Positions 910-32,224 of a stretch of DNA of 64,000 nt are shown piece by piece; position 1 is the first letter of the stretch; every line of letters starts with the position of its first letter. The notes beneath the pieces were generated by a model, which saw only the letters and a program-made list of their open reading frames with translations, ran no database searches and was not told the DNA's origin. This DNA comes from a virus. The position numbers and the translations under genes were made by a program. The stretch is from the IMG/VR virus record IMGVR_UViG_3300035698_011327, positions 1-64,000 of that record; one strand, written 5' to 3'.

Positions 910-938
910 TTTACTCCTATAATGACCCGTAGTATAAT
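910..938 (+). promoter_or_regulatory. sigma70-type early promoter
   Basis: TTTACT (910-915), 17-nt spacer, TATAAT (933-938), preceded by CATAAAATAA. Confidence 0.85.
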
Positions 939-5359: not shown

Positions 5360-5388
5360 TTTACTTCACACCCTAAAAAAGGTATAAT
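5360..5388 (+). promoter_or_regulatory. sigma70-type promoter driving the large non-coding unit
   Basis: TTTACT (5360-5365), 17-nt spacer, TATAAT (5383-5388), CATAAAATAA upstream. Confidence 0.85.
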
Positions 5389-5394
5389 TAGGTA

Positions 5395-6572
5395 GTTTGA
5401 AAGACCTAGGACAGGCCTAGGCTCAGGACAGGGAATAAGCGAAGTGCGGAGCACGTAACGCCTCCCTAAGTTTAACATACCGATCTTGAAGCCTTCGTCG
5501 GTGCGGAAATAACCGTATATGTTAGACGGAGAGGACAGCGGAGGGATTAACACCGTTAAGGTAGTAATCCTGTTCTGAAAAGAACTTAGAGCCACCGGGA
5601 GTAAAAGAAAAGCATAAGTCGGAAAGACTGCTTTACAGAACTAACGTCCTACCTACAGTAAACTCTTACTGCGTTGGTGAGGGCTAGAACCCCGTGTATT
5701 GTATCCTTAATCTATCGTCTTCCCGCAGCAATCGGCACTTCTCGAAAACGTCAGAAATAAAGAATATTTGCTGACGATATGGCGTAGGCTATCTAACCTG
5801 AGGCCCTTTATAAACCGTGAGTTAGAAGTCAGATTCAGTCCCAACGCCGGTAAGAAGAAGCCACTTCCATAAAGTCTTTTCAATATTCTATCTCATACTC
5901 TACTACTGCGACTTCATACGGACGAAAAGATGGCTCGGAAAGGGAGAGTGTTTCTACAGCGATAACTTCCGTCCTTGAGGCAATCTGGTTTCAAGGGTAA
6001 GGAAAACCGTAGTGAACGATTAGTCTGAGCGTTAAGCCTTTAAATGGGAAAGCCATTAGTAGGTGCCTAGACAGCACGAAGTGGTTAGTAGCTGCCTAAT
6101 ACGTTGGGCTATGGAAATCGCCTTTTAATGATAAAGCCATCGAAAGTTTTACTGGATGATCCATCTTTGATTCTTTGAGTCCTCGTACCTACCCGTTGTA
6201 ACAGAGGATGATCGGGATGCGTTCTTACGTTGGTAGTAAGAAGTCTGGGTGGAAATAAAGTTAAATAAAATTTCAGATTTAGGTCAAGACCAACCGAGAG
6301 GTGAGTCCCTATCAAGACATAGGGGGAGACTGGTAACAAAAATTAGTAGGGCTTGAAACGATGAAAGCATAACGTCGGTGAGAAAGAAGCCGATAGTGTT
6401 AATAACCGTATCAAGGAACCGCTGTAGGTGACATAAACACTCAAGCTTCTTAATTTTCCCTCCGGTACGCTGAAAAGCGTACCCTACACTGTAAAGTGTA
6501 GTCCTTTCAACGTAGCTGTAAAAGCTACGTGTTGGTGGTTGGGGCATCCTTCATTGGGTGCCCCAATTACTG
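5395..6572 (+). ncRNA. candidate large (~1.2 kb) structured non-coding RNA
   Basis: no + strand ORF of 60 aa or more behind a consensus promoter; many helices and GNRA-type hairpins, closing with a long GC-rich hairpin at 6534-6571. Confidence 0.65.
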
Positions 6573-6729: not shown

Positions 6730-7167
6730 GTGATTATGGAAAATGAAGCGAATGGATTCAAGAAAGAAATCGAGAACTATCAGTGTCCCGGTTGTATGTG
6801 CGGTTGTGACATAAGCTGCTTTGAGCCTAGTTTTCTAGGCGTAGGCTGTGGAAAGCACGTGCCTGGAACCCTTATTGTACCAGGGATAGGCAGAATATCT
6901 CTTGGTATGCCAAAAGGGTTCAACCGAATAGGGCCATTAGACACTAAAGATGGCAATATGAACCTGTATATCCTGCCACACCCCGATGAATTCGAATATG
7001 ATGACCTTAACGTTGTCGTGTGGAAACATCTGGATGAGCACGGGAACACATTAGCCCGTGGTATGACTCCACGGCTAAACCTGCCTTTCTTACACGTTCT
7101 TATTGGTGACTACATCGACGCTATTGGCGGCATCGATATAACATCTAAGCTAAAAGACCTTGACTAA
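6730..7167 (+). CDS. Cys-containing hypothetical protein
   Basis: CPGCMCGC motif, AAGGAG RBS. Confidence 0.75.
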   Translation: MIMENEANGFKKEIENYQCPGCMCGCDISCFEPSFLGVGCGKHVPGTLIVPGIGRISLGMPKGFNRIGPLDTKDGNMNLYILPHPDEFEYDDLNVVVWKHLDEHGNTLARGMTPRLNLPFLHVLIGDYIDAIGGIDITSKLKDLD

Positions 7168-24089: not shown

Positions 24090-25034
24090 ATGAAAAGAAT
24101 ATTGATTATCGGGGCAGGAATTTCTGGTATGATAGCAGAAGGGGCTTTCTCTGAAGACCCTGATAACCAAGTGATGGTCATAGACCCGTTTTTTGACGAG
24201 CATAAGATTATGTCATCTCATAAAGCTGTGATGAGGTTGAGAGATGAGCGCATAAAAAAGTACGTTCCTTGCGACTTACAGGAAATAGTTGCACACAAGG
24301 CTATAGTAACTGATGGTAAAATAGTGGACAGCCCTACAATCCGACTTAATAACCTGTACAGTCTCAAGACTTATGGCTCTCTTGGTGTGAGATCGCTAAA
24401 TGATCTTGGAGCGCAAAAAAGATTCTTATTCAATCGGTTCAAAAAGACAGACTGGAATTTATATGATAAAGATAAGCTACTTGGCGTGGCCAAAAAAGCT
24501 TGTTGGACGAGTAAATTTGAGCACTTAGAATACGATATCTGTATAAGCACCATCCCTATGCCACATCTGCTAAAAATCACTATGGAATTTATGTGGCCGT
24601 CTGATATTGTATTCAAGTCCAATCCTATCTACATAACGACAGGGACTCTAATTATAGATTCAAACGTACACCAGACCCTATACTTTGTTGATTCAGAGAC
24701 TCCGATTTACAGAGCTACAATTGAGAGTAAGTCGATTCTTATAGAGGCAATAGAGGAGCCTGATAACGACGATATAGAATACTGTATCAGCTGCTTTGGT
24801 ATAGAGCTGTCCCATGTTACCAATTGGAAAAGAACAGAACAGAAAATGGGAAAGATATTTCCTATTGACGACACGGTGCGGAAAAGAATAATGATGGATT
24901 TAACAGAGCACTATAATGTGTACTCGTTTGGTAGATTTGCTACTTGGAAATCCTTGCGAATAGATCAGACGTTAGATGATATTGAAAGAATTAAGATGAT
25001 GATAAAGGTTAGATCTGGGGACTACTATTCGTGA
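24090..25034 (+). CDS. FAD-dependent oxidoreductase (UDP-galactopyranose mutase-like fold)
   Basis: N-terminal IIGAGISG, YDICISTIP, C-terminal FGRFATWK. Confidence 0.75.
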   Translation: MKRILIIGAGISGMIAEGAFSEDPDNQVMVIDPFFDEHKIMSSHKAVMRLRDERIKKYVPCDLQEIVAHKAIVTDGKIVDSPTIRLNNLYSLKTYGSLGVRSLNDLGAQKRFLFNRFKKTDWNLYDKDKLLGVAKKACWTSKFEHLEYDICISTIPMPHLLKITMEFMWPSDIVFKSNPIYITTGTLIIDSNVHQTLYFVDSETPIYRATIESKSILIEAIEEPDNDDIEYCISCFGIELSHVTNWKRTEQKMGKIFPIDDTVRKRIMMDLTEHYNVYSFGRFATWKSLRIDQTLDDIERIKMMIKVRSGDYYS

Positions 25035-25116
25035 CTCATTGCTAAAAATAACGCTTTACTTATCCTCTAAAATATAATACATAGTAGATGACTATGATAG
25101 CGATACTTAAGACATC

Positions 25117-25190
25117 GAACCTTGAGAGTCCTTTTCCGGTGACGGATTATGGGCAGCCGTCGCTGGCTGTAGTCAACTCTCAAGGTTTTT
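25117..25190 (+). ncRNA. structured three-way-junction leader RNA (copy B)
   Basis: same architecture as 14313-14386 with compensatory changes. Confidence 0.65.
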
Positions 25191-25206
25191 CTATTTAGGA
25201 GATGCT

Positions 25207-25974
25207 ATGAAAAGAAAGAGGAGGACATGTAAATGTGGGTGTGGAGATCCAGTGAAACTAGGTGGTGATCTATTTATACCAACATTGTCGATTAAGAAAA
25301 AGCTTGGTGAGATAGAAGAATATTATTTACATAAATATCAGGACAAGGGGATACCCCCTCTTCCAAAACTTGACCATAAAGAGGTCATTAAAGAGCTTTA
25401 TATTTTCAGAGAAGCAACGAATCTCTTACACCTTAAGACTATCCTTTCAAATGAGTTCTTGTGCTTTGAAGCAGCTCAAGGTCTTATGCTTGATCAGGAC
25501 TATGGAGATTTCCCTTACGTCACTCGTTCAAAAACAGGCATCGACTATGCGGCTAATTTCTGTTCCGGTCTGGGTATCGACATAGATAAGACGATCTATG
25601 TCACAAGAGCTTACAATACAAGACATGGTGCTGGGCCTCTTAGAGGTGAAGGAAAAATGGAGTCATTCTCAACTGGGATAGATGTAACTAATATCTATAA
25701 TAGTTGGCAAGACAGCCTAAGATTTGCTCCGATTAATCTTGATCGGATGAGTCAAGTTATCTTAAAAGATAGGGATATTTATAATCGGTCTGAAAAGATT
25801 CGGATGATGACTCACTTAGATACGATACCAGAAGAAACAAGGTCCATCATATTTGACGATGAGATACGCCTATCGAAAGGGGCTTTCATCGGAATAGCAG
25901 AGTATGCGTACGACATTGTCTCCTATGGTCCACGTAGATGGGATGTTGAATTAACAAAAGAATTATCATTGTAA
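25207..25974 (+). CDS. purA: chimera: HNH-type N-terminal peptide fused to the C-terminal half of an adenylosuccinate synthetase-like protein (possible pseudogene)
   Basis: MKRKRRTCKCGCG then FEAAQGLMLD.DYG.FPYVTRS, TRAYNTRHGAGP; N-terminal P-loop absent. Confidence 0.7.
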   Translation: MKRKRRTCKCGCGDPVKLGGDLFIPTLSIKKKLGEIEEYYLHKYQDKGIPPLPKLDHKEVIKELYIFREATNLLHLKTILSNEFLCFEAAQGLMLDQDYGDFPYVTRSKTGIDYAANFCSGLGIDIDKTIYVTRAYNTRHGAGPLRGEGKMESFSTGIDVTNIYNSWQDSLRFAPINLDRMSQVILKDRDIYNRSEKIRMMTHLDTIPEETRSIIFDDEIRLSKGAFIGIAEYAYDIVSYGPRRWDVELTKELSL

Positions 25975-25985
25975 AATCTTTTTTC

Positions 25986-26044
25986 TTTACTTTTTAGGTT
26001 ATCACGGTATAACTAAGTAACGAAAGAAATTTGTTCTTTGAAAA
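25986..26044 (+). promoter_or_regulatory. promoter plus boxA-like antiterminator site
   Basis: TTTACT (25986) with TATAAC (26008, 16-nt spacer); TGTTCTTTGAAAA at 26032-26044. Confidence 0.6.
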
Positions 26045-26046
26045 TT

Positions 26047-26254
26047 TAGACGGTACTTTGAATGCTTACACGCAAATTATAGGTTCGAATCCTATAGTCC
26101 CCACCATTTTAGCAGATTGTGGCCATGGCCACTGGCCAAACGAGTCGCCAAGCGTCTTGGCGGGCCATTTTATGGGGACTTGGCGCAATTGGTGACGCAC
26201 TATCATATTGAGATAGCTTCAAAAGCAACGACAGCACTCTTGACTCACCGTCTA
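26047..26254 (+). ncRNA. Y-RNA-like module 1 with circularly permuted tRNA mimic (YrlA-like)
   Basis: closing stem TAGACGGT/ACCGTCTA; inside, T-arm and 3' acceptor strand with CCA precede 5' acceptor strand, D-arm and anticodon-like arm. Confidence 0.75.
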
Positions 26255-26264
26255 TTACATCTTC

Positions 26265-26392
26265 TCCAGCAGTACCACTAAGGCATACATGCAAAAATAG
26301 CTCAATTGGTTGAGCATTAGACTCTTAATCTAACTGTTACGGGTTCAAGTCCCGTTTTTTATACCATACGGCCTTTATAACTCACTGCTGGA
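26265..26392 (+). ncRNA. Y-RNA-like module 2 enclosing a tRNA-Lys(CTT)-like cloverleaf
   Basis: closing stem TCCAGCAGT/ACTGCTGGA; cloverleaf 26291-26366 with weak A-U acceptor stem. Confidence 0.75.
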
Positions 26393-26399
26393 AATTTTC

Positions 26400-26463
26400 G
26401 CACAGAACTTCTTGTCCATACATGCCATGGAACCGCAAACAAAGGACATATGACTCTCTGTGC
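26400..26463 (+). ncRNA. Y-RNA-like module 3 (minimal)
   Basis: GCACAGA/TCTGTGC and TGTCC/GGACA stems with AC, ATACATGC and GACTC motifs. Confidence 0.7.
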
Positions 26464-26473
26464 TTCGTCTTCT

Positions 26474-26580
26474 AAGGTAGCACTCTTAGAGCATACATGC
26501 GACCAAAGGACTCATACTCCTGCCAAAAGTGTAGGCACGCAAACCTACAGATTCATCCTGCTCTTAGGACTCGCTGCCTT
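26474..26580 (+). ncRNA. Y-RNA-like module 4
   Basis: AAGGTAGC/GCTGCCTT and AGAGC/GCTCT stems with the same motifs; internal GTAGG/CCTAC hairpin. Confidence 0.7.
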
Positions 26581-26618
26581 TCACATTTTATAAACCACAA
26601 TCTATGAAAGGAGCAACT

Positions 26619-28091
26619 ATGACTGAAAGGGAAACGATCAGCAGAAACCAGATTGTCTCTGGCCTCCTACGCATAGGCCATGGCGACTTGGGTATCTACC
26701 AAAGCGACGGTATTGCTGCGGCTAACGAGGATGCCGAATTATTTGGGCACTTCTTGTGCTGGAACAGCAAGAACGGTGAGGTTAGAGACTCTAAGGTTGC
26801 CTTTCCTGTGTTAGCCTTGAGAGGAATAGCGGACGATGAGCTATTTGAAAATGCGGTAGCCAATCTCTGCTTACTTGACCCAAGGAATTTCCTGAGGGCA
26901 GTAACCTACCACAAATCATTACCTGTAAAGGTAACGGATGGTGGAGGGGCCTTTCTTAAAAAGGCCGTCAAGATGTACCTTAAGCATAGGCAGCATGGAG
27001 GCTTACGGAACAGCGCCCTTCTTCAGCACAGAAAATCTATGAAGGCGTTGTATGCTCTTTATCACGAAACCCCTGATCCAGTTTCACAGGCAGTTCTTTT
27101 TGATAAGAAAAAGCCTAAAGGGTCTGTCTTTGAAGCAGTAGCTAACCTTAAAGATATGACACCTACGAAAGCCGCTGGTGAAATCATGACAAAGAAGATT
27201 CCATTCCTTGTCGCTGTCGGTGCTCTTGGTGGGATCAAAGATAAACCGGACGTCATAATCGCTTTGATGGATAGGATGTCTGGTAGCGAGTTAATCAATA
27301 ACACGAAATCCCTTAAGAGGATGGGCGTTTTTGAAAACCCAGTGCTTTCTGCCGCTTACGAACAAGCTTTGGAAAAAGTAAAAACGGACAAGAAAGTGTC
27401 AAGCCTTAAGGCTAGCGTTGCCGCAAAACAGGTAGGAGGCAAGGCTAAGAAGAAGATGAAGGCAGTCCAAGAGAAAAAGCTTGTTGACCTTGGAGGCATT
27501 AAAGGCGACTGGCTTGTTCTTGGAGATGCAAGTAGCAGTATGCATGCTTCTGTAGAGATTGCTAAGCAAGTTGCTGCTCTTATTTCTCAGCAAGCGTTAG
27601 GTACGGTTGACCTTATCTTCTTTAATCAAAATGTCATCAAGCATATAGATGCTACTAATAAGACTCTTGAGGAAATTGAGCACGAAGCAAGGCTTGTTAG
27701 GGCAGGCGGGATGACTTCTTGTGGCGCTGGAATCGACTATATCAAGCGTCAAGGAAGGGTTGTTAATGGTATAGCGATTATTACCGATGGTGGCGAGAAT
27801 CAATGGCCACATTTTAGCGATGCATATATTGAGTATTCAGACCTGCTTGGTATAAAGCCAGCCGTCTACATGTACCACATTAGTGGTGATCGGGATACTA
27901 TGAGTGTGCATTGTAAGCAGCAGCAAGTACAGACCGAGAGGTTTGAGCTTGGTCACGATGTAGACTATTACAGTCTGCCTAATCTTATTAAGACTATGAG
28001 AGCAAACCGCTATGCTTTGGTAGATGAGATGATGGAGATTCCACTTTTAACCTTAAAGGACGTTTTTAGCGGAAACGGAAAGAGATCATAA
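26619..28091 (+). CDS. divergent TROVE/Ro60-like protein with C-terminal vWA domain
   Basis: ~490 aa, basic helical N-region, MIDAS DASSSM, GGMTSCG, IITDGGEN; RBS favours 26619. Confidence 0.65.
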   Translation: MTERETISRNQIVSGLLRIGHGDLGIYQSDGIAAANEDAELFGHFLCWNSKNGEVRDSKVAFPVLALRGIADDELFENAVANLCLLDPRNFLRAVTYHKSLPVKVTDGGGAFLKKAVKMYLKHRQHGGLRNSALLQHRKSMKALYALYHETPDPVSQAVLFDKKKPKGSVFEAVANLKDMTPTKAAGEIMTKKIPFLVAVGALGGIKDKPDVIIALMDRMSGSELINNTKSLKRMGVFENPVLSAAYEQALEKVKTDKKVSSLKASVAAKQVGGKAKKKMKAVQEKKLVDLGGIKGDWLVLGDASSSMHASVEIAKQVAALISQQALGTVDLIFFNQNVIKHIDATNKTLEEIEHEARLVRAGGMTSCGAGIDYIKRQGRVVNGIAIITDGGENQWPHFSDAYIEYSDLLGIKPAVYMYHISGDRDTMSVHCKQQQVQTERFELGHDVDYYSLPNLIKTMRANRYALVDEMMEIPLLTLKDVFSGNGKRS

Positions 28092-28092
28092 G

Positions 28093-28401
28093 ATGAATGT
28101 AAATGCTATCAGATCCATCATCAGCAATATCGATGGTGGGGGAACCGACGATCTAATTCTGGCGAAACAAAATGCTCAGCTGCTTTTGACTGGGTATGAA
28201 GAGGCAAATGTCTCTGCGCCTGATTGGGTTTACGATGGGATCAACGTCCTTAAGAGGGAGATTGATCACCGTAACAAGGCTGAGCTTGAGCTTCGGCTTA
28301 AGAAATTGAAAGCCCAGAGAGAAGGCCTGTCTACTATCGCTGAGAAGCGGAAATCTGCCGACGACGAGATTGAACGCCTTCAGAAGGCACTTAATGCCTA
28401 A
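28093..28401 (+). CDS. small coiled-coil protein co-transcribed with the vWA gene
   Basis: starts 1 nt after the previous stop; heptad pattern. Confidence 0.75.
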   Translation: MNVNAIRSIISNIDGGGTDDLILAKQNAQLLLTGYEEANVSAPDWVYDGINVLKREIDHRNKAELELRLKKLKAQREGLSTIAEKRKSADDEIERLQKALNA

Positions 28402-28409
28402 CCTTTTAC

Positions 28410-28431
28410 CGGGGTCACCTTCGGGTGACCC
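28410..28431 (+). terminator. UUCG-tetraloop hairpin
   Basis: GGGGTCACC-TTCG-GGTGACCCC perfect stem; no U-tract on the + strand. Confidence 0.55.
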
Positions 28432-28445
28432 CTAAAGGGGCTTAC

Positions 28446-29225
28446 ATGGAAATCACCCTCCTAGATACAAACAATCTAGCTCAAGAATTACTCATCATGA
28501 GCAAAAATACCAGACATCTTGACGACCCTAATGTCTGGGATCAAATCTTAAAAATGTCCGAAGCAGAAAAAGCCAAAGAGCTTGAGTATGTCTTCGGCAC
28601 AATCACTTCTGCTTTTGAGTTTGTAGATTATGTCTTTTTACTTAGGGACGTAACAAGAGCATTCACCCACCAAGTCGTCCGACACCGAGTCGGGACAAGC
28701 TTTGCTCAACAGAGTATGCGTGTCGCCCCGGCAGAAGCCTTTAAATATTTCGTGCCTGATGACCTTGAGAGAGATCAGTATCAGATTGCCGTCTACGATT
28801 CAACTATGATGAGCATACAGGAAGGATACAATCTCCTCCTAAATAAAGGCACAGACGTACAAGACGCACGTGGAGTACTCCCAACGAATATCTGTACGAA
28901 TATACTGATGAAGATTAACCTCCGTGCTTTGGCGTTGCTTATGGAGACTCGACTCTGTATTCGTGCACAAGGTGAATTTCAACAAGTGGCCTTGGCTATG
29001 AAAGAGATCGTATCTGAAATCCATCCTTGGGCTGCTCACCTGTTGTTTCCGATGTGTGTTGCTAAAAACCACTGCCAATTTATAAATTTTAAAGAGTGTC
29101 CTTTAAAAAACAAGTATCCACACCTACAACCTATTAAAGGCGATCTCAAATCGAAAGTTGAGAATGATTGGATGAAACTAATGGAACATAATTACTCTCC
29201 GCAACCAAAACAATCTATCATATAG
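28446..29225 (+). CDS. thyX: flavin-dependent thymidylate synthase
   Basis: TRAFTHQVVRHR....FAQQSMR, DARGVLP, RLCIRAQGE. Confidence 0.9.
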   Translation: MEITLLDTNNLAQELLIMSKNTRHLDDPNVWDQILKMSEAEKAKELEYVFGTITSAFEFVDYVFLLRDVTRAFTHQVVRHRVGTSFAQQSMRVAPAEAFKYFVPDDLERDQYQIAVYDSTMMSIQEGYNLLLNKGTDVQDARGVLPTNICTNILMKINLRALALLMETRLCIRAQGEFQQVALAMKEIVSEIHPWAAHLLFPMCVAKNHCQFINFKECPLKNKYPHLQPIKGDLKSKVENDWMKLMEHNYSPQPKQSII

Positions 29226-31118: not shown

Positions 31119-31868
31119 ATGGCGAAGAAACTGTATGAACTGTTAGCAACAGAAAGCGAATTGGCAGGGGTATTCAAGAATATTATAACCGAGACAGGGA
31201 CTAATTTCTTGAAGAAAGCAGATCGGTACACTGGGTACCATACAGAAGTCAAATATTTTGACGAGAGTGCTCCAAGAGAAGCAGATACTCACGTTAAAGT
31301 AGACGATACTGTTCCAAGTAAGCTTGCTTATACAGCTGGTCACATTACAGCGTATCTTGACGCCGTATTACAGAAAGAGTCTGCTAACCAAAAAGCCATG
31401 GCTGACGTCGTAATTGACGGCGTGGTTATAGCAACTGATGTACCAGCGACATTCCTTCTTGGGCTTGAAACTAAGTTAAAGAAAGTAAGGGACGAAGTGT
31501 ATGCGAAGATCCCTACATTACAACCCAGTATCCACTGGGATGTAGATACGAACGAGATGGAAGGTGTCTTCAAAAAGAGAGACTCTGATGAGAAATTCAG
31601 AACGAAGAAGATGATGAAGAACCATGTCCGTGCTGCCGCTACCGACAAACATCCTGCTCAAGTCGATGTCTATAATGAGGATGAGAAGATAGCAAGAATC
31701 GTTACGGATACCTGGTGTGGGATGATCTCTTCTGCTGAGAAGTCAAGGCTTTTGAATAAGGTCGATGCTTTAATCAGAGCAGTAAAGACCGCAAGGCAGA
31801 GAGCTAATTCTGTAAAGGTCGATGATGTGAAAATTGGCGAGAAACTTTTTGGTTTTATTAATTCATAA
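31119..31868 (+). CDS. coiled-coil protein of unknown function followed by a structured RNA
   Basis: 249 aa; VPATFLLGLE, ATDKHPAQV, AVKTARQRAN; strong RBS. Confidence 0.75.
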   Translation: MAKKLYELLATESELAGVFKNIITETGTNFLKKADRYTGYHTEVKYFDESAPREADTHVKVDDTVPSKLAYTAGHITAYLDAVLQKESANQKAMADVVIDGVVIATDVPATFLLGLETKLKKVRDEVYAKIPTLQPSIHWDVDTNEMEGVFKKRDSDEKFRTKKMMKNHVRAAATDKHPAQVDVYNEDEKIARIVTDTWCGMISSAEKSRLLNKVDALIRAVKTARQRANSVKVDDVKIGEKLFGFINS

Positions 31869-31871
31869 GAT

Positions 31872-32150
31872 TGGGATAGCGTCAGCTTCAATGCCTTTAA
31901 GAGTCAAGGCGCAAAACAAGCTAACCCCTGAAGGTTAGTCTTGAAACAAAGTCCATGGCTCAAGGTATCAAACTCAGATTCAAATTTAGCGTGAAACCCA
32001 ATAGCTTCAAGGCAGGGTTCTATAGAATTGTTGAAAGTCGATACACTACACCCTGGGTCGTGGGTTCGAATCCCTCCCCAGCCCCCAAAAATTATGGCTG
32101 GGTAGCTCAGTGGAAGAGCAAGGGTCTTAATCAAATTGATACGACTTTTC
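31872..32150 (+). ncRNA. ncRNA with hexamer repeats and a circularly permuted tRNA mimic
   Basis: T-arm 32060-32076, CCCAGCC-C-CCA, 8-nt linker, GGCTGGG, D-arm 32105-32119, ACCCT/AGGGT stem leading out. Confidence 0.7.
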
Positions 32151-32224
32151 AATATACTTCATAGACGAGCCGTCATAACTTATTACGCAATGGTTAATAT
32201 CCATTAAATAAAATGACATAGACA

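What the first reader, a model, noticed from the sequence alone, without database searches (positions are those of the whole stretch)
26047..28401. Array of four modular Y-like RNAs with a shared covarying clasp upstream of a divergent Ro60/TROVE-vWA gene
Seen: four consecutive units (26047-26254, 26265-26392, 26400-26463, 26474-26580) share one layout: stem1, AC, 4 nt, 5-bp stem2, WTACAYGC, variable cargo, stem2', 3 nt, RACTC, stem1'. Stem sequences differ completely yet pair (TAGACGGT/ACCGTCTA, CCAGCAGT/ACTGCTGG, GCACAGA/TCTGTGC, AAGGTAGC/GCTGCCTT), while the unpaired motifs are nearly invariant. The cargo differs in each: permuted tRNA, whole tRNA-Lys-like cloverleaf, short loop, small hairpin. 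The array has its own promoter and precedes a helical-plus-vWA (DxSxS) protein and a coiled-coil gene closed by a UUCG hairpin. Established: bacterial Ro60 (Rsr) has HEAT-plus-vWA architecture, binds the terminal stem of Y RNAs encoded beside it, and YrlA RNAs mimic tRNA. Inference: a phage RNP platform in which one ring protein loads interchangeable RNA adaptors or decoys, using a clasp that does not resemble the canonical Y RNA bulged helix as I recall it.
Basis: partly seen in the sequence, partly recalled or inferred. Interest (0 to 1): 0.92.

Follow-up and report, generated by a model that had tools for sequence, protein, structure and literature searches.

The report
Phage Ro60 with four Y RNAs
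An uncultured salt-lake phage encodes a very diverged copy of the ring-shaped RNA-binding protein Ro60 and, just upstream, four small RNAs that share one conserved "handle" but carry different inserts (two of them tRNA look-alikes), a many-RNA variant of the known Ro60/Y-RNA particle rather than a new kind of system.

Summary
Four tandem units (26047-26580, + strand) share stem1 / AC loop / stem2 / WUACAYGC / variable cargo / stem2' / RACUC / stem1'. The stems differ in sequence but still pair.

The gene at 26619-28091 has no Pfam TROVE match. Its AlphaFold model aligns over about 430 residues with solved Ro60 structures (Z 17-21) and keeps the vWA DxSxS site.

A covariance model built only from other phage contigs found 98 such units, all on the gene's strand. 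They lie in 38 of 52 loci that encode a homologue. It recovers the window's four units at their exact borders. Both stems covary (95% paired, against 50% when shuffled).

Rfam's YrlA model hits sister units below threshold (up to 57 bits) and has the same layout. So these are Y RNAs of the YrlA/YrlB kind with an altered handle: the CGAA motif is absent, and YAC/ACUY, a U.G pair and UACAYG are conserved instead.

Cargo is a permuted tRNA, an unpermuted tRNA-Lys-like cloverleaf with a weak acceptor stem, or short hairpins. A conserved ~100-aa helical protein follows the Ro60 gene in at least 45 of 62 loci.

Expression and binding are untested. This scan has reported similar Ro60-like RNA arrays on other DNA. 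Verdict: a new variant of a known kind.

The parts
25986..26013 (+). Promoter-like site TTTACT-N16-TATAAC, about 34 nt upstream of unit 1
   Evidence: The pattern TTTACT-N16-18-TATAAY matches 3 times on the + strand (910, 5360, 25986) against 0.11 expected. The generic sigma-70 scan did not report it. Function is inferred.
26047..26254 (+). Unit 1: handle plus 160-nt cargo. The cargo is a circularly permuted tRNA-like domain in the order T arm, 3' acceptor strand, CCA, 66-nt structured insert, 5' acceptor strand, D arm, anticodon arm.
   Evidence: Sequence. ARAGORN calls the in-silico re-permuted cargo a tRNA in 110/120 variants. R2 model: 9.0 bits at 26049-26252.
26265..26392 (+). Unit 2: handle plus an unpermuted tRNA-Lys(CUU)-like cloverleaf with encoded CCA. 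Its acceptor stem starts inside the conserved ...AUGC motif and ends in a G.U pair and a C.A mismatch.
   Evidence: ARAGORN 26291-26366. Rfam tRNA 65 bits. Acceptor comparison with the 7 other tRNAs of the window. R2: 6.7 bits at 26267-26390.
26400..26463 (+). Unit 3: minimal unit (YrlB-like), handle plus 18-nt cargo
   Evidence: Top hit of model R2 in the whole window, both strands: 22.4 bits, E 1e-4. Fold.
26474..26580 (+). Unit 4: handle plus 59-nt cargo with two small hairpins
   Evidence: Second hit of model R2 in the window: 18.8 bits, E 1.6e-3. Fold.
26619..28091 (+). Diverged Ro60 (TROVE-type helical ring plus vWA with DxSxS MIDAS), 490 aa. The likely start is the ATG at 26619, behind AAGGAG.
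   Evidence: AF2 model with pLDDT 86. Foldseek full-length hits to Ro60 at E 1e-8 to 2e-10. VIA-align Z 16.6-21.1 over 415-438 residues. phrog_850 'RNA-binding protein' at 1.9e-5. No Pfam TROVE match.
28093..28401 (+). Conserved ~100-aa helical, Lys/Arg-rich protein with an invariant proline (P-E/D-W motif). It travels with the Ro60 gene.
   Evidence: tblastn finds a homologue directly downstream of the Ro60 homologue in at least 45 of 62 loci. Alignment A11. No Pfam or PHROG family.
28411..28432 (+). 9-bp G+C-rich hairpin with a UUCG tetraloop after the small gene, with no U-tract
   Evidence: Sequence. Not reported as a terminator by the scan.

Best explanation
The region is a Ro60/Y-RNA locus of an uncultured phage.

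Layout. A short operon-like block encodes four tandem non-coding RNAs, then a highly diverged Ro60 ring protein, then a conserved small helical protein.

The handle. In each RNA the 5' and 3' ends pair to form stem1. Above it sits a conserved asymmetric internal loop, 5'-(Y)AC against 3'-ACUY. An upper stem follows, opened in most relatives by an invariant U.G pair. A UACAYG junction closes the module.

Relation to YrlA. This handle is the clade-specific counterpart of the Ro60-binding stem of bacterial YrlA/YrlB. The layout and the YUAY element are kept, and the CGAA motif is replaced.

Inferred mechanism. The Ro60 ring binds the shared handle. The variable distal module works as in known Y RNAs, as a tether or gate that brings Ro60 together with host enzymes that recognise tRNA-shaped or structured RNA. 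The published example is PNPase in the RYPER complex. The distal module here is a permuted tRNA, an unpermuted tRNA look-alike, or a small hairpin. Several RNAs with one handle would give several specificities to one protein during infection.

Shown: the RNA family, its covariation, its linkage and orientation to the gene, the Ro60 fold of the model, and the tRNA likeness of the cargo.
Inferred: transcription, processing into separate RNAs, binding, and the effector.
For: Protein:
- The AF2 model (pLDDT 86) matches Xenopus, human, Deinococcus and Thermus-phage Ro60 over the whole chain. Foldseek gives E 2e-10 to 7e-8 and TM 0.58-0.66. VIA-align gives Z 16.6-21.1 with 415-438 aligned residues, well above vWA-only hits at Z 14.3 or less.
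- DxSxS is invariant in 40 homologues.

RNA:
- Descriptor scan: 32 units on +, 0 on -.
- Model R2, trained without the window: 98 hits, all on +. They lie in 38/52 non-redundant loci, 93 upstream within 2 kb and 5 downstream.
- 95.3% of cells are paired, against 50.1% in shuffles and 30-44% with slid partners. All 11 pairs show changes on both sides.
- Further pairs 15-267 (GC 73, UA 12, CG 3) and 16-266 covary.
- The window's units are recovered at their exact borders.

Link to Y RNAs:
- Rfam YrlA hits sister units full-length: L043 57.3 bits at E 2e-10; L005, L019 and L054 at 33-37 bits.
- Its consensus shows the same order: stem1 / 5-nt loop / stem2 / CUAc / T-AS-D / stem2' / 8-nt loop with AcU / stem1'.
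- Chen et al. 2014 (PMC4201824) describe the YUAY after the stem and Y RNAs beside phage Ro60 genes.
- phiLo Ro60 binds two upstream Yrl RNAs and host PNPase (PMC12135203).

tRNA mimicry rather than decoding:
- 17/112 units hold an ARAGORN tRNA with mixed anticodons. Five have A34, two have abnormal loops and two read stop codons. The acceptor stems start inside the conserved motif.
- Unit 2's acceptor end is mismatched, while the seven other tRNAs in the window are perfect.
Against: - No expression data exist, and only DNA runs hold the sequence.
- The window's four units are not hit by Rfam YrlA or Y_RNA even at E 10.
- The GNCGAA motif thought to be the Rsr site is absent (0/4 here, 1/98 in relatives). 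Binding by Ro60 therefore cannot be carried over from known complexes.
- The protein is linked to Ro60 only by predicted structure. Pfam TROVE and a family profile against PDB sequences find nothing.
- The small downstream protein co-occurs just as tightly and could be the handle binder.
- A more canonical YrlA-like RNA lies 4 kb downstream at 32034-32151 (45 bits). It could be the true Ro60 partner.
- Units 1 and 2 score weakly with the external model (9.0 and 6.7 bits).
Confidence: 0.78

Rival explanations
1. Decoy or caged-tRNA reading. The tRNA-shaped cargos are baits for host tRNA-targeting defence nucleases or toxins, or are sensors of them. The handle and Ro60 only stabilise or present them. 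This overlaps with the best explanation and differs in the proposed effector.
For: - Cargo anticodon loops vary freely between phages and include Lys CUU twice.
- The loci sit inside phage tRNA islands.
- Unit 2 keeps all the tertiary-interaction nucleotides of a tRNA.
Against: - No defence-related or anti-defence gene was tied to the locus.
- One third of the units (33/98) carry only a short hairpin and cannot be tRNA baits.
- Many cargos have abnormal anticodon loops or none (permuted, sealed forms), so anticodon-nuclease bait is not a general property.
Confidence: 0.1
2. Processing-cassette reading. The units are precursors. Stem1 and stem2 are cleavage stems for RNase III- or RNase E-type enzymes, and the cargos are released as working tRNAs. 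Unit 1 would give a two-piece tRNA after RNase P and 3' trimming.
For: - Units 1 and 2 encode CCA after the 3' acceptor strand.
- In unit 1 the order 3' acceptor-CCA, insert, 5' acceptor is that of permuted two-piece tmRNA genes. This comparison rests on my own knowledge.
- The units are separated by only 7-10 nt, so a common precursor must be cut.
Against: - The unpaired handle nucleotides are near-invariant in 98 units (A 96/97, C 92/98, UACA 96-98/98, GA 95/97). That points to a retained recognition module, not a discarded flank.
- Only 7/17 ARAGORN-called cargos end in CCA. Five have A34, and several have 2- or 4-nt 'anticodons'.
- The acceptor stems are short or mismatched.
- Genuine tRNAs of the same phages lack the handle.
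Confidence: 0.06
3. The handle is bound by the conserved small basic helical protein (28093-28401) rather than by Ro60, or only by the two together.
For: A homologue lies directly after the Ro60 gene in at least 45 of 62 loci. It is rich in Lys and Arg in its C-terminal helix.
Against: It has no known RNA-binding fold or family. Known Ro60 proteins bind the equivalent stem of Y RNAs without a partner (PMC4201824, PMC12135203).
Confidence: 0.05
4. Chance similarity, or DNA-level repeats such as recombination or packaging sites, with no RNA function.
For: There is no expression evidence.
Against: - Strand specificity of 98:0 and 32:0.
- Compensatory changes in every stem pair.
- Conserved position next to one gene family at 28-57% protein identity.
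Confidence: 0.01

Closest known systems
Bacterial and phage YrlA / YrlB Y RNAs with Rsr (Ro60): Rfam RF02553; Chen et al. 2014, PMC4201824
   Same: - Encoded beside a Ro60 gene, often several per locus.
- The 5' and 3' ends pair. An internal loop, a second stem and a YUAY element follow.
- The tRNA-like domain runs in the permuted order T arm, closed acceptor, D arm.
- Short partners without a tRNA domain exist (YrlB).
- The 3' internal loop holds ACU.
- Sister units score up to 57 bits with RF02553.
   Different: - No GNCGAA(N)G motif. The conserved nucleotides are YAC / ACUY, a U.G pair and UACAYG instead.
- All scores are below the gathering score of 69, and the window's own units are not detected at all.
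- Arrays reach six units.
- Some cargos are unpermuted cloverleaves with an open acceptor end and CCA.
- Unit 1 keeps an anticodon arm and carries a 66-nt insert in the acceptor loop.
- The protein partner is not recognised by Pfam TROVE.
Thermus phage phiLo Ro60 with Yrl1/Yrl2 (PDB 9KOP, 9L5Y; PMC12135203)
   Same: - A phage-encoded Ro60 ring plus vWA, with Y-like RNAs directly upstream of the gene.
- It is among the best structural matches: Foldseek rank 1, and VIA Z 18.9 and 16.6.
- It is a published precedent for a phage Ro60 RNP that engages host PNPase.
   Different: - The phiLo Yrls carry the CGAA motif and number two.
- Sequence identity to the window protein is about 15%.
- No tRNA-like cargo or small downstream partner protein was noted in the passages of that paper that I read.
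Metazoan Y RNAs with Ro60 (PDB 1YVP; Stein et al. 2005, as cited in PMC4201824)
   Same: The terminal stem formed by both RNA ends is the protein-binding module, and the loop region is variable. The protein model aligns with Xenopus and human Ro60 at Z 19-21.
   Different: There is no GGUCCGA/UUGACY bulged helix and no match to Rfam Y_RNA. Here the cargos are tRNA-like.
Class I RNAs of dictyostelid amoebae (PMC7919456). A lead only, raised by earlier notes of this scan.
   Same: - Small RNAs of about 60 nt.
- A short stem joins both ends, a conserved roughly 11-nt unpaired motif follows the 5' stem strand, and the rest is variable (PMC7919456).
- As I recall it, that motif contains UUACAGC, close to the UUACAYGC seen here.
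   Different: - The resemblance rests on one short motif. The motif's letters are not in the text I could read.
- Class I RNAs have one stem and not two, and no ACUY loop.
- They are bound by an RRM protein (Rnp1A/Cibp), with no reported Ro60 link.
- No Rfam model other than tRNA reached its gathering score in this stretch.

Membership tests
Ro60 / TROVE protein family | Closed ring of HEAT-like helical repeats capped by a vWA domain | tested here: met
   On the predicted model only: AF2 pLDDT 86. Full-length matches to Ro60 structures at Z 16.6-21.1 over 415-438 residues and Foldseek E down to 2e-10.
Ro60 / TROVE protein family | MIDAS motif DxSxS in the vWA domain | tested here: met
   D303, S305 and S307 are invariant in 40 homologues.
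Ro60 / TROVE protein family | Match to the Pfam TROVE profile (PF05731), or sequence similarity to solved Ro60 proteins | tested here: not met
   No TROVE hit at E 0.01 or at E 1 in six frames. phmmer and the family profile against PDB sequences find no Ro60. Only phrog_850 'RNA-binding protein' matches, over the vWA half.
Ro60 / TROVE protein family | Binds Y RNA stems and the ends of misfolded RNAs | not testable with these tools
   Needs EMSA, co-purification or a structure.
YrlA-type Y RNA (Rfam RF02553) | Encoded next to a Ro60 gene | tested here: met
   The units end 39 nt before the Ro60 start. There are 93 units within 2 kb upstream in 38/52 related loci.
YrlA-type Y RNA (Rfam RF02553) | Terminal stem, internal loop, second stem, then YUAY | tested here: met
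   Both stems covary. UAC follows stem2 in 96-98 of 98 units. This is the same order as the RF02553 consensus.
YrlA-type Y RNA (Rfam RF02553) | GNCGAA(N)G motif at the 5' stem/loop border (the proposed Rsr site) | tested here: not met
   CGAA occurs in the first 14 nt of 1/98 units and CGA[AU] in 5/98. Neither occurs in the window's four units.
YrlA-type Y RNA (Rfam RF02553) | tRNA-like domain with T arm, closed acceptor-like stem-loop and D arm in permuted order | tested here: met
   Met for unit 1 only, in modified form, and for at least 13 sister units. Units 2-4 do not have it: one unpermuted cloverleaf and two hairpin cargos.
YrlA-type Y RNA (Rfam RF02553) | Score at or above Rfam's gathering score (69 bits) | tested here: not met
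   The window units get no hit at E 10. The best sister unit scores 57.3 bits.

The most novel reading that the evidence does not exclude
One phage Ro60 ring is loaded, through a shared non-CGAA handle, with a set of differently shaped tRNA baits. These include an unpermuted tRNA-Lys-like RNA with a CCA end. They also include a permuted tRNA whose acceptor end could be opened by RNase P to give a two-piece, CCA-ended RNA. The particle would then act as a multiplexed decoy or sensor against host tRNA-targeting defences, or as a tether for several host tRNA enzymes. Its UUACAYGC handle might be related to the unexplained Class I RNAs of social amoebae.
Probability: 0.1. Interest if true: 0.85.

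Novelty: new variant of a known kind. Interest (0 to 1): 0.55.

Why it matters
Ro60 and Y RNAs are studied mainly in animals and a few bacteria, and what the variable part of a Y RNA does is still open.

This clade is large: 630 clusters at 50% identity. It is confined to uncultured phages, and Pfam does not see it. Each phage carries two to six RNAs that share one handle and differ in the distal module.

That gives a natural series of sealed, permuted and open tRNA shapes on one scaffold. The series could be used to test which host enzymes the distal module recruits.

The replaced CGAA motif gives a second, independent solution for the protein-RNA contact.

It also shows that current tRNA finders call some of these mimics as tRNAs with odd anticodons, which inflates phage tRNA counts.

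Tried and rejected
- Rfam at E 10 over 25950-26650 gave only tRNA and chance hits, with no Y_RNA, YrlA or ribozyme family.
- megablast of 25000-29000 against GenBank phages found no match. tblastn found one unannotated uncultured huge phage, LR756511, at 32% identity.
- MAFFT could not align the units correctly because cargo lengths differ. I therefore seeded a covariance model from one unit of another phage (L040) and iterated.
- Complex prediction of the Ro60-like protein with the small downstream protein returned no verdict. It is not used either way.
- The look-up of sequencing runs listed no RNA holder. Nine salt-lake metagenome DNA runs hold the stretch.
- The ESM Atlas gave only generic helical look-alikes for the small protein.
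- RtcB, Rnl2-type RNA ligase and Pfam TROVE were not found in the 76-kb record, which is about 78% complete.
- Readings of the handle as a kink-turn, as hammerhead-like, or as a vertebrate-type bulged helix were considered by eye. I dropped them because the required nucleotides (tandem G.A, GAAA, GGUC) are not conserved.
- Pairing of the invariant U with the invariant G of GACU cannot be shown by covariation, because neither base varies.
Full report
**1. The observation.**
Reading 25800-26700 confirms four consecutive units on the + strand at 26047-26254, 26265-26392, 26400-26463 and 26474-26580. Spacers of 7-10 nt separate them.

Each unit has:
- an outer stem of 7-9 bp formed by its two ends;
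- AC plus 4 nt;
- a 5-bp inner stem;
- WTACAYGC;
- a cargo of 160, 78, 18 or 59 nt;
- the return strand of the inner stem;
- 3 nt plus RACTC;
- the return strand of the outer stem.

The outer and inner stems share no sequence between units, yet they pair. The exceptions are one A.C mismatch in unit 1's inner stem and one G.U pair in unit 4's outer stem.

ARAGORN and Rfam call a tRNA-Lys(CTT) inside unit 2, at 26291-26366 with 65 bits. I joined the two halves of unit 1's cargo in the opposite order in a script. ARAGORN then called a tRNA in 110 of 120 junction variants. The 'permuted tRNA' is therefore real. Its order is T arm, 3' acceptor strand, CCA, a 66-nt structured insert, 5' acceptor strand, D arm, anticodon arm.

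**2. The protein.**
The ORF is best started at 26619, behind AAGGAG, and matches the N-termini of its homologues. It gives a 490-aa protein. Pfam finds only a sub-threshold VWA_2 match. PHROGs gives phrog_850 'RNA-binding protein' over the vWA half. phmmer and a 40-sequence family profile find no Ro60 among PDB sequences.

An AlphaFold2 model built on that alignment has pLDDT 86 and pTM 0.73. It matches Ro60 structures over the whole chain:
- Foldseek E 2e-10 to 7e-8 and TM 0.58-0.66 to Thermus phage phiLo Ro60 (9KOP, 9L5Y), Xenopus and human Ro60 (1YVP, 9NFA and others) and Deinococcus Rsr (2NVO).
- VIA-align Z 16.6-21.1 with 415-438 aligned residues. vWA-only proteins stop at Z 14.3 with about 160 residues.

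D303, S305 and S307 (DxSxS) are invariant in the family. The protein is therefore a Ro60-type ring plus vWA by predicted structure, but not by sequence profile.

The family is large: 353 hits among the 8,000 candidates scored and 630 clusters at 50% identity. Almost all come from metagenomes. Only one GenBank phage record, an uncultured 595-kb phage, holds a homologue.

**3. The RNA family.**
I fetched 62 viral contigs that encode a homologue at 28-57% identity. The 8-mer WTACAYGC is strongly enriched on the gene's strand there.

A strict descriptor required both stems, the core and RACTY. It found 32 units on the + strand and none on the - strand.

MAFFT could not align units whose cargos differ in length. 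I therefore seeded a covariance model from a single unit of another phage (L040) and rebuilt it from the 18 hits, none from the window (model R2).

R2 found 98 units in 421 kb, all on the + strand. They lie in 38 of 52 non-redundant loci, with one to six per locus. Ninety-three lie within 2 kb upstream of the gene and five lie downstream.

On the model-fitted alignment:
- 95.3% of cells form standard pairs, against 50.1% in shuffles and 30-44% when partners are slid.
- All 11 pairs have changes on both sides.
- The alignment was fitted to the structure, which favours it. The slid controls and the free descriptor result argue that the effect is real.
- Two further pairs extend the inner stem: G-C 73 / U-A 12 / C-G 3, and A-U 31 / G-C 27 / U-A 19.

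The nearly invariant unpaired nucleotides are:
- Y-A-C after the outer stem (A 96/97, C 92/98);
- a U (86/98) opposite an invariant G (95/97);
- U-A-C-A-Y-G after the inner stem (96-98 of 98);
- A-C-U-Y before the outer return strand.

R2 was run on the whole window with filters off. Units 3 and 4 were the two best hits on either strand (22.4 and 18.8 bits; E 1e-4 and 1.6e-3). Unit 1 scored 9.0 bits. In a local search unit 2 also appears at its exact borders, at 6.7 bits. The window's units are thus diverged members. They lack the G-C pair that follows the U.G pair in most relatives.

**4. What the family is.**
Rfam's YrlA model (RF02553, gathering score 69) does not see the window's units. 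It does hit sister units in other loci over its full length: L043 at 57.3 bits and E 2e-10; L005, L019 and L054 at 33-37 bits.

The printed consensus of YrlA has the same order of elements. It runs outer stem, 5-nt loop, second stem, CUAc, T arm, closed acceptor-like hairpin, D arm, return strand, an 8-nt loop that contains AcU, and outer return strand.

Chen et al. 2014 (PMC4201824) describe the elements that define this kind:
- the YUAY that follows the stem;
- the tRNA-like domain in permuted order;
- the short partner YrlB;
- the presence of such RNAs beside Ro60 genes of phages.

The 2025 phiLo study (PMC12135203) shows a phage Ro60 binding two upstream Yrl RNAs and host PNPase.

What is not shared is the GNCGAA(N)G motif proposed as the Rsr contact. 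CGAA occurs in 1 of 98 units and in none of the window's four. The 'clasp' is therefore best read as the YrlA/YrlB stem module with a replaced recognition motif, in step with a Ro60 clade that has itself diverged beyond profile detection.

**5. Cargo.**
Among the 98 units, 33 are short (under 85 nt). Thirteen have T arm before D arm (YrlA order) and 16 have D arm before T arm (normal tRNA order). Twenty-six have a T arm only, and 10 are long without either. Several arrays repeat the window's order, a permuted unit followed by an unpermuted one (L042, L044, L052).

ARAGORN calls a tRNA in 17 of 112 units:
- The anticodons are CAU, AUC, UGU and CUU twice each, and ACU, UUA, AAU, UCA, UGC, AAA and UUG once each.
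- Two have loops with 2 or 4 'anticodon' bases.
- Five have A34.
- Only seven end in CCA.
- The 5' acceptor strands begin inside the conserved UACAYGC.

In the window, unit 2's acceptor stem ends in G.U and C.A. The seven other tRNAs have perfect stems and CCA. These cargos are therefore mimics under structural constraint, not decoding constraint.

In short and permuted units the YGC of the motif starts a small hairpin, often with a 7-nt loop. The constant single-stranded element is thus WUACA.

**6. Surroundings.**
- A promoter-like TTTACT-N16-TATAAC lies at 25986-26013. The pattern occurs three times on the + strand of the window, where 0.11 are expected. The generic sigma-70 scan does not report it.
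- The 102-aa ORF at 28093-28401 has homologues directly after the Ro60 homologue in at least 45 of 62 loci. It is helical and basic, has an invariant proline, and belongs to no known family.
- A 9-bp UUCG hairpin without a U-tract follows at 28411-28432.
- Next come ThyX, a methyltransferase, an isomerase-like gene and more tRNA genes.
- RtcB and Rnl2-type ligase, the partners of rsr in enterobacteria, were not found in the 76-kb record.
- A fifth, more canonical YrlA-like RNA (45 bits, E 8e-9, outer stem ending in GUCGAU) lies at 32034-32151, after a DUF7873 gene. The same pair of gene and RNA occurs in L041.

**7. Mechanism and rivals.**
The best-supported reading (0.78) is a Ro60/Y-RNA particle with several RNAs. 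Ro60 binds the shared handle, and the distal module acts as tether or gate towards host enzymes that recognise tRNA-shaped or structured RNA, as in the Ro60-Y RNA-PNPase complex. Binding, expression, processing and the effector are inferred.

The rivals are:
- a decoy or sensor role for the tRNA-shaped cargos (0.10, partly overlapping with the best reading);
- precursor cassettes that release working tRNAs (0.06), which the invariant handle nucleotides and the defective anticodons argue against;
- binding of the handle by the small protein instead of Ro60 (0.05);
- chance or DNA-level repeats (0.01), excluded by strand bias and covariation.

**8. Novelty.**
A phage Ro60 with adjacent tRNA-mimicking Y RNAs is published. 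The following are new as far as the searched literature shows:
- a large Ro60 clade that profiles do not see;
- a handle without CGAA;
- arrays of up to six units;
- unpermuted cloverleaf cargos with open CCA ends;
- a conserved small partner gene.

Earlier notes of this scan report similar arrays beside Ro60-like genes in other phages. I did not test them. They also raised a likeness to dictyostelid Class I RNAs. The paper (PMC7919456) confirms the general design: a stem joining the ends, an 11-nt unpaired motif and a variable rest. The likeness rests on one short motif and remains a lead.

I rate this a new variant of a known kind, interest 0.55.

Noticed in passing
window 32034-32151 (+), after the DUF7873 gene at 31119-31868: A fifth Y-RNA-like element. 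It matches Rfam YrlA over the full model at 45 bits, E 8e-9 (below the gathering score of 69). Its outer stem ends in GUCGAU, closer to the canonical CGAA motif than the four units beside the Ro60 gene. The same DUF7873 gene plus YrlA-like RNA pair occurs in L041 (gene 5819-6553, RNA 6921-7051).
   Followed up: partly
window 910-938, 5360-5388, 25986-26013 (+): Three matches to TTTACT-N16-18-TATAAY on the + strand, against 0.11 expected by chance. Possibly a promoter type of this phage or its host. One sits before the ORF-free transcript noted elsewhere in this genome.
   Followed up: partly
window 28093-28401 and the loci: A ~100-aa helical, Lys/Arg-rich protein family with an invariant proline (P-E/D-W) and no Pfam or PHROG family. 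It lies directly downstream of the Ro60-like gene in at least 45 of 62 phage loci.
   Followed up: partly
L008 4786-5549: In this contig the five-unit RNA array lies downstream of the Ro60-like and small-protein genes instead of upstream, still on the same strand.
   Followed up: no
related loci, e.g. L007 2044-2116, L008 4807-4878 and 5448-5523, L020 1924-1999, L057 2828-2901: ARAGORN reports tRNAs with unusual anticodons (Asp-AUC, Ile-AAU, Phe-AAA, 'Stop'-UUA) that are in fact cargos of handle-bearing units. Automatic tRNA counts of such phages are inflated by these mimics.
   Followed up: partly
window 28425-29225: The listed GTG start of the ThyX (Thy1, PF02511) ORF lies inside the UUCG hairpin at 28411-28432, and the Pfam match begins at residue 41. 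The true start is probably further downstream.
   Followed up: no
window 25207-25974: A 255-aa ORF matches only positions 188-277 of the 416-position adenylosuccinate synthetase profile (PF00709). It is a truncated or diverged PurA-like gene directly upstream of the RNA array.
   Followed up: no
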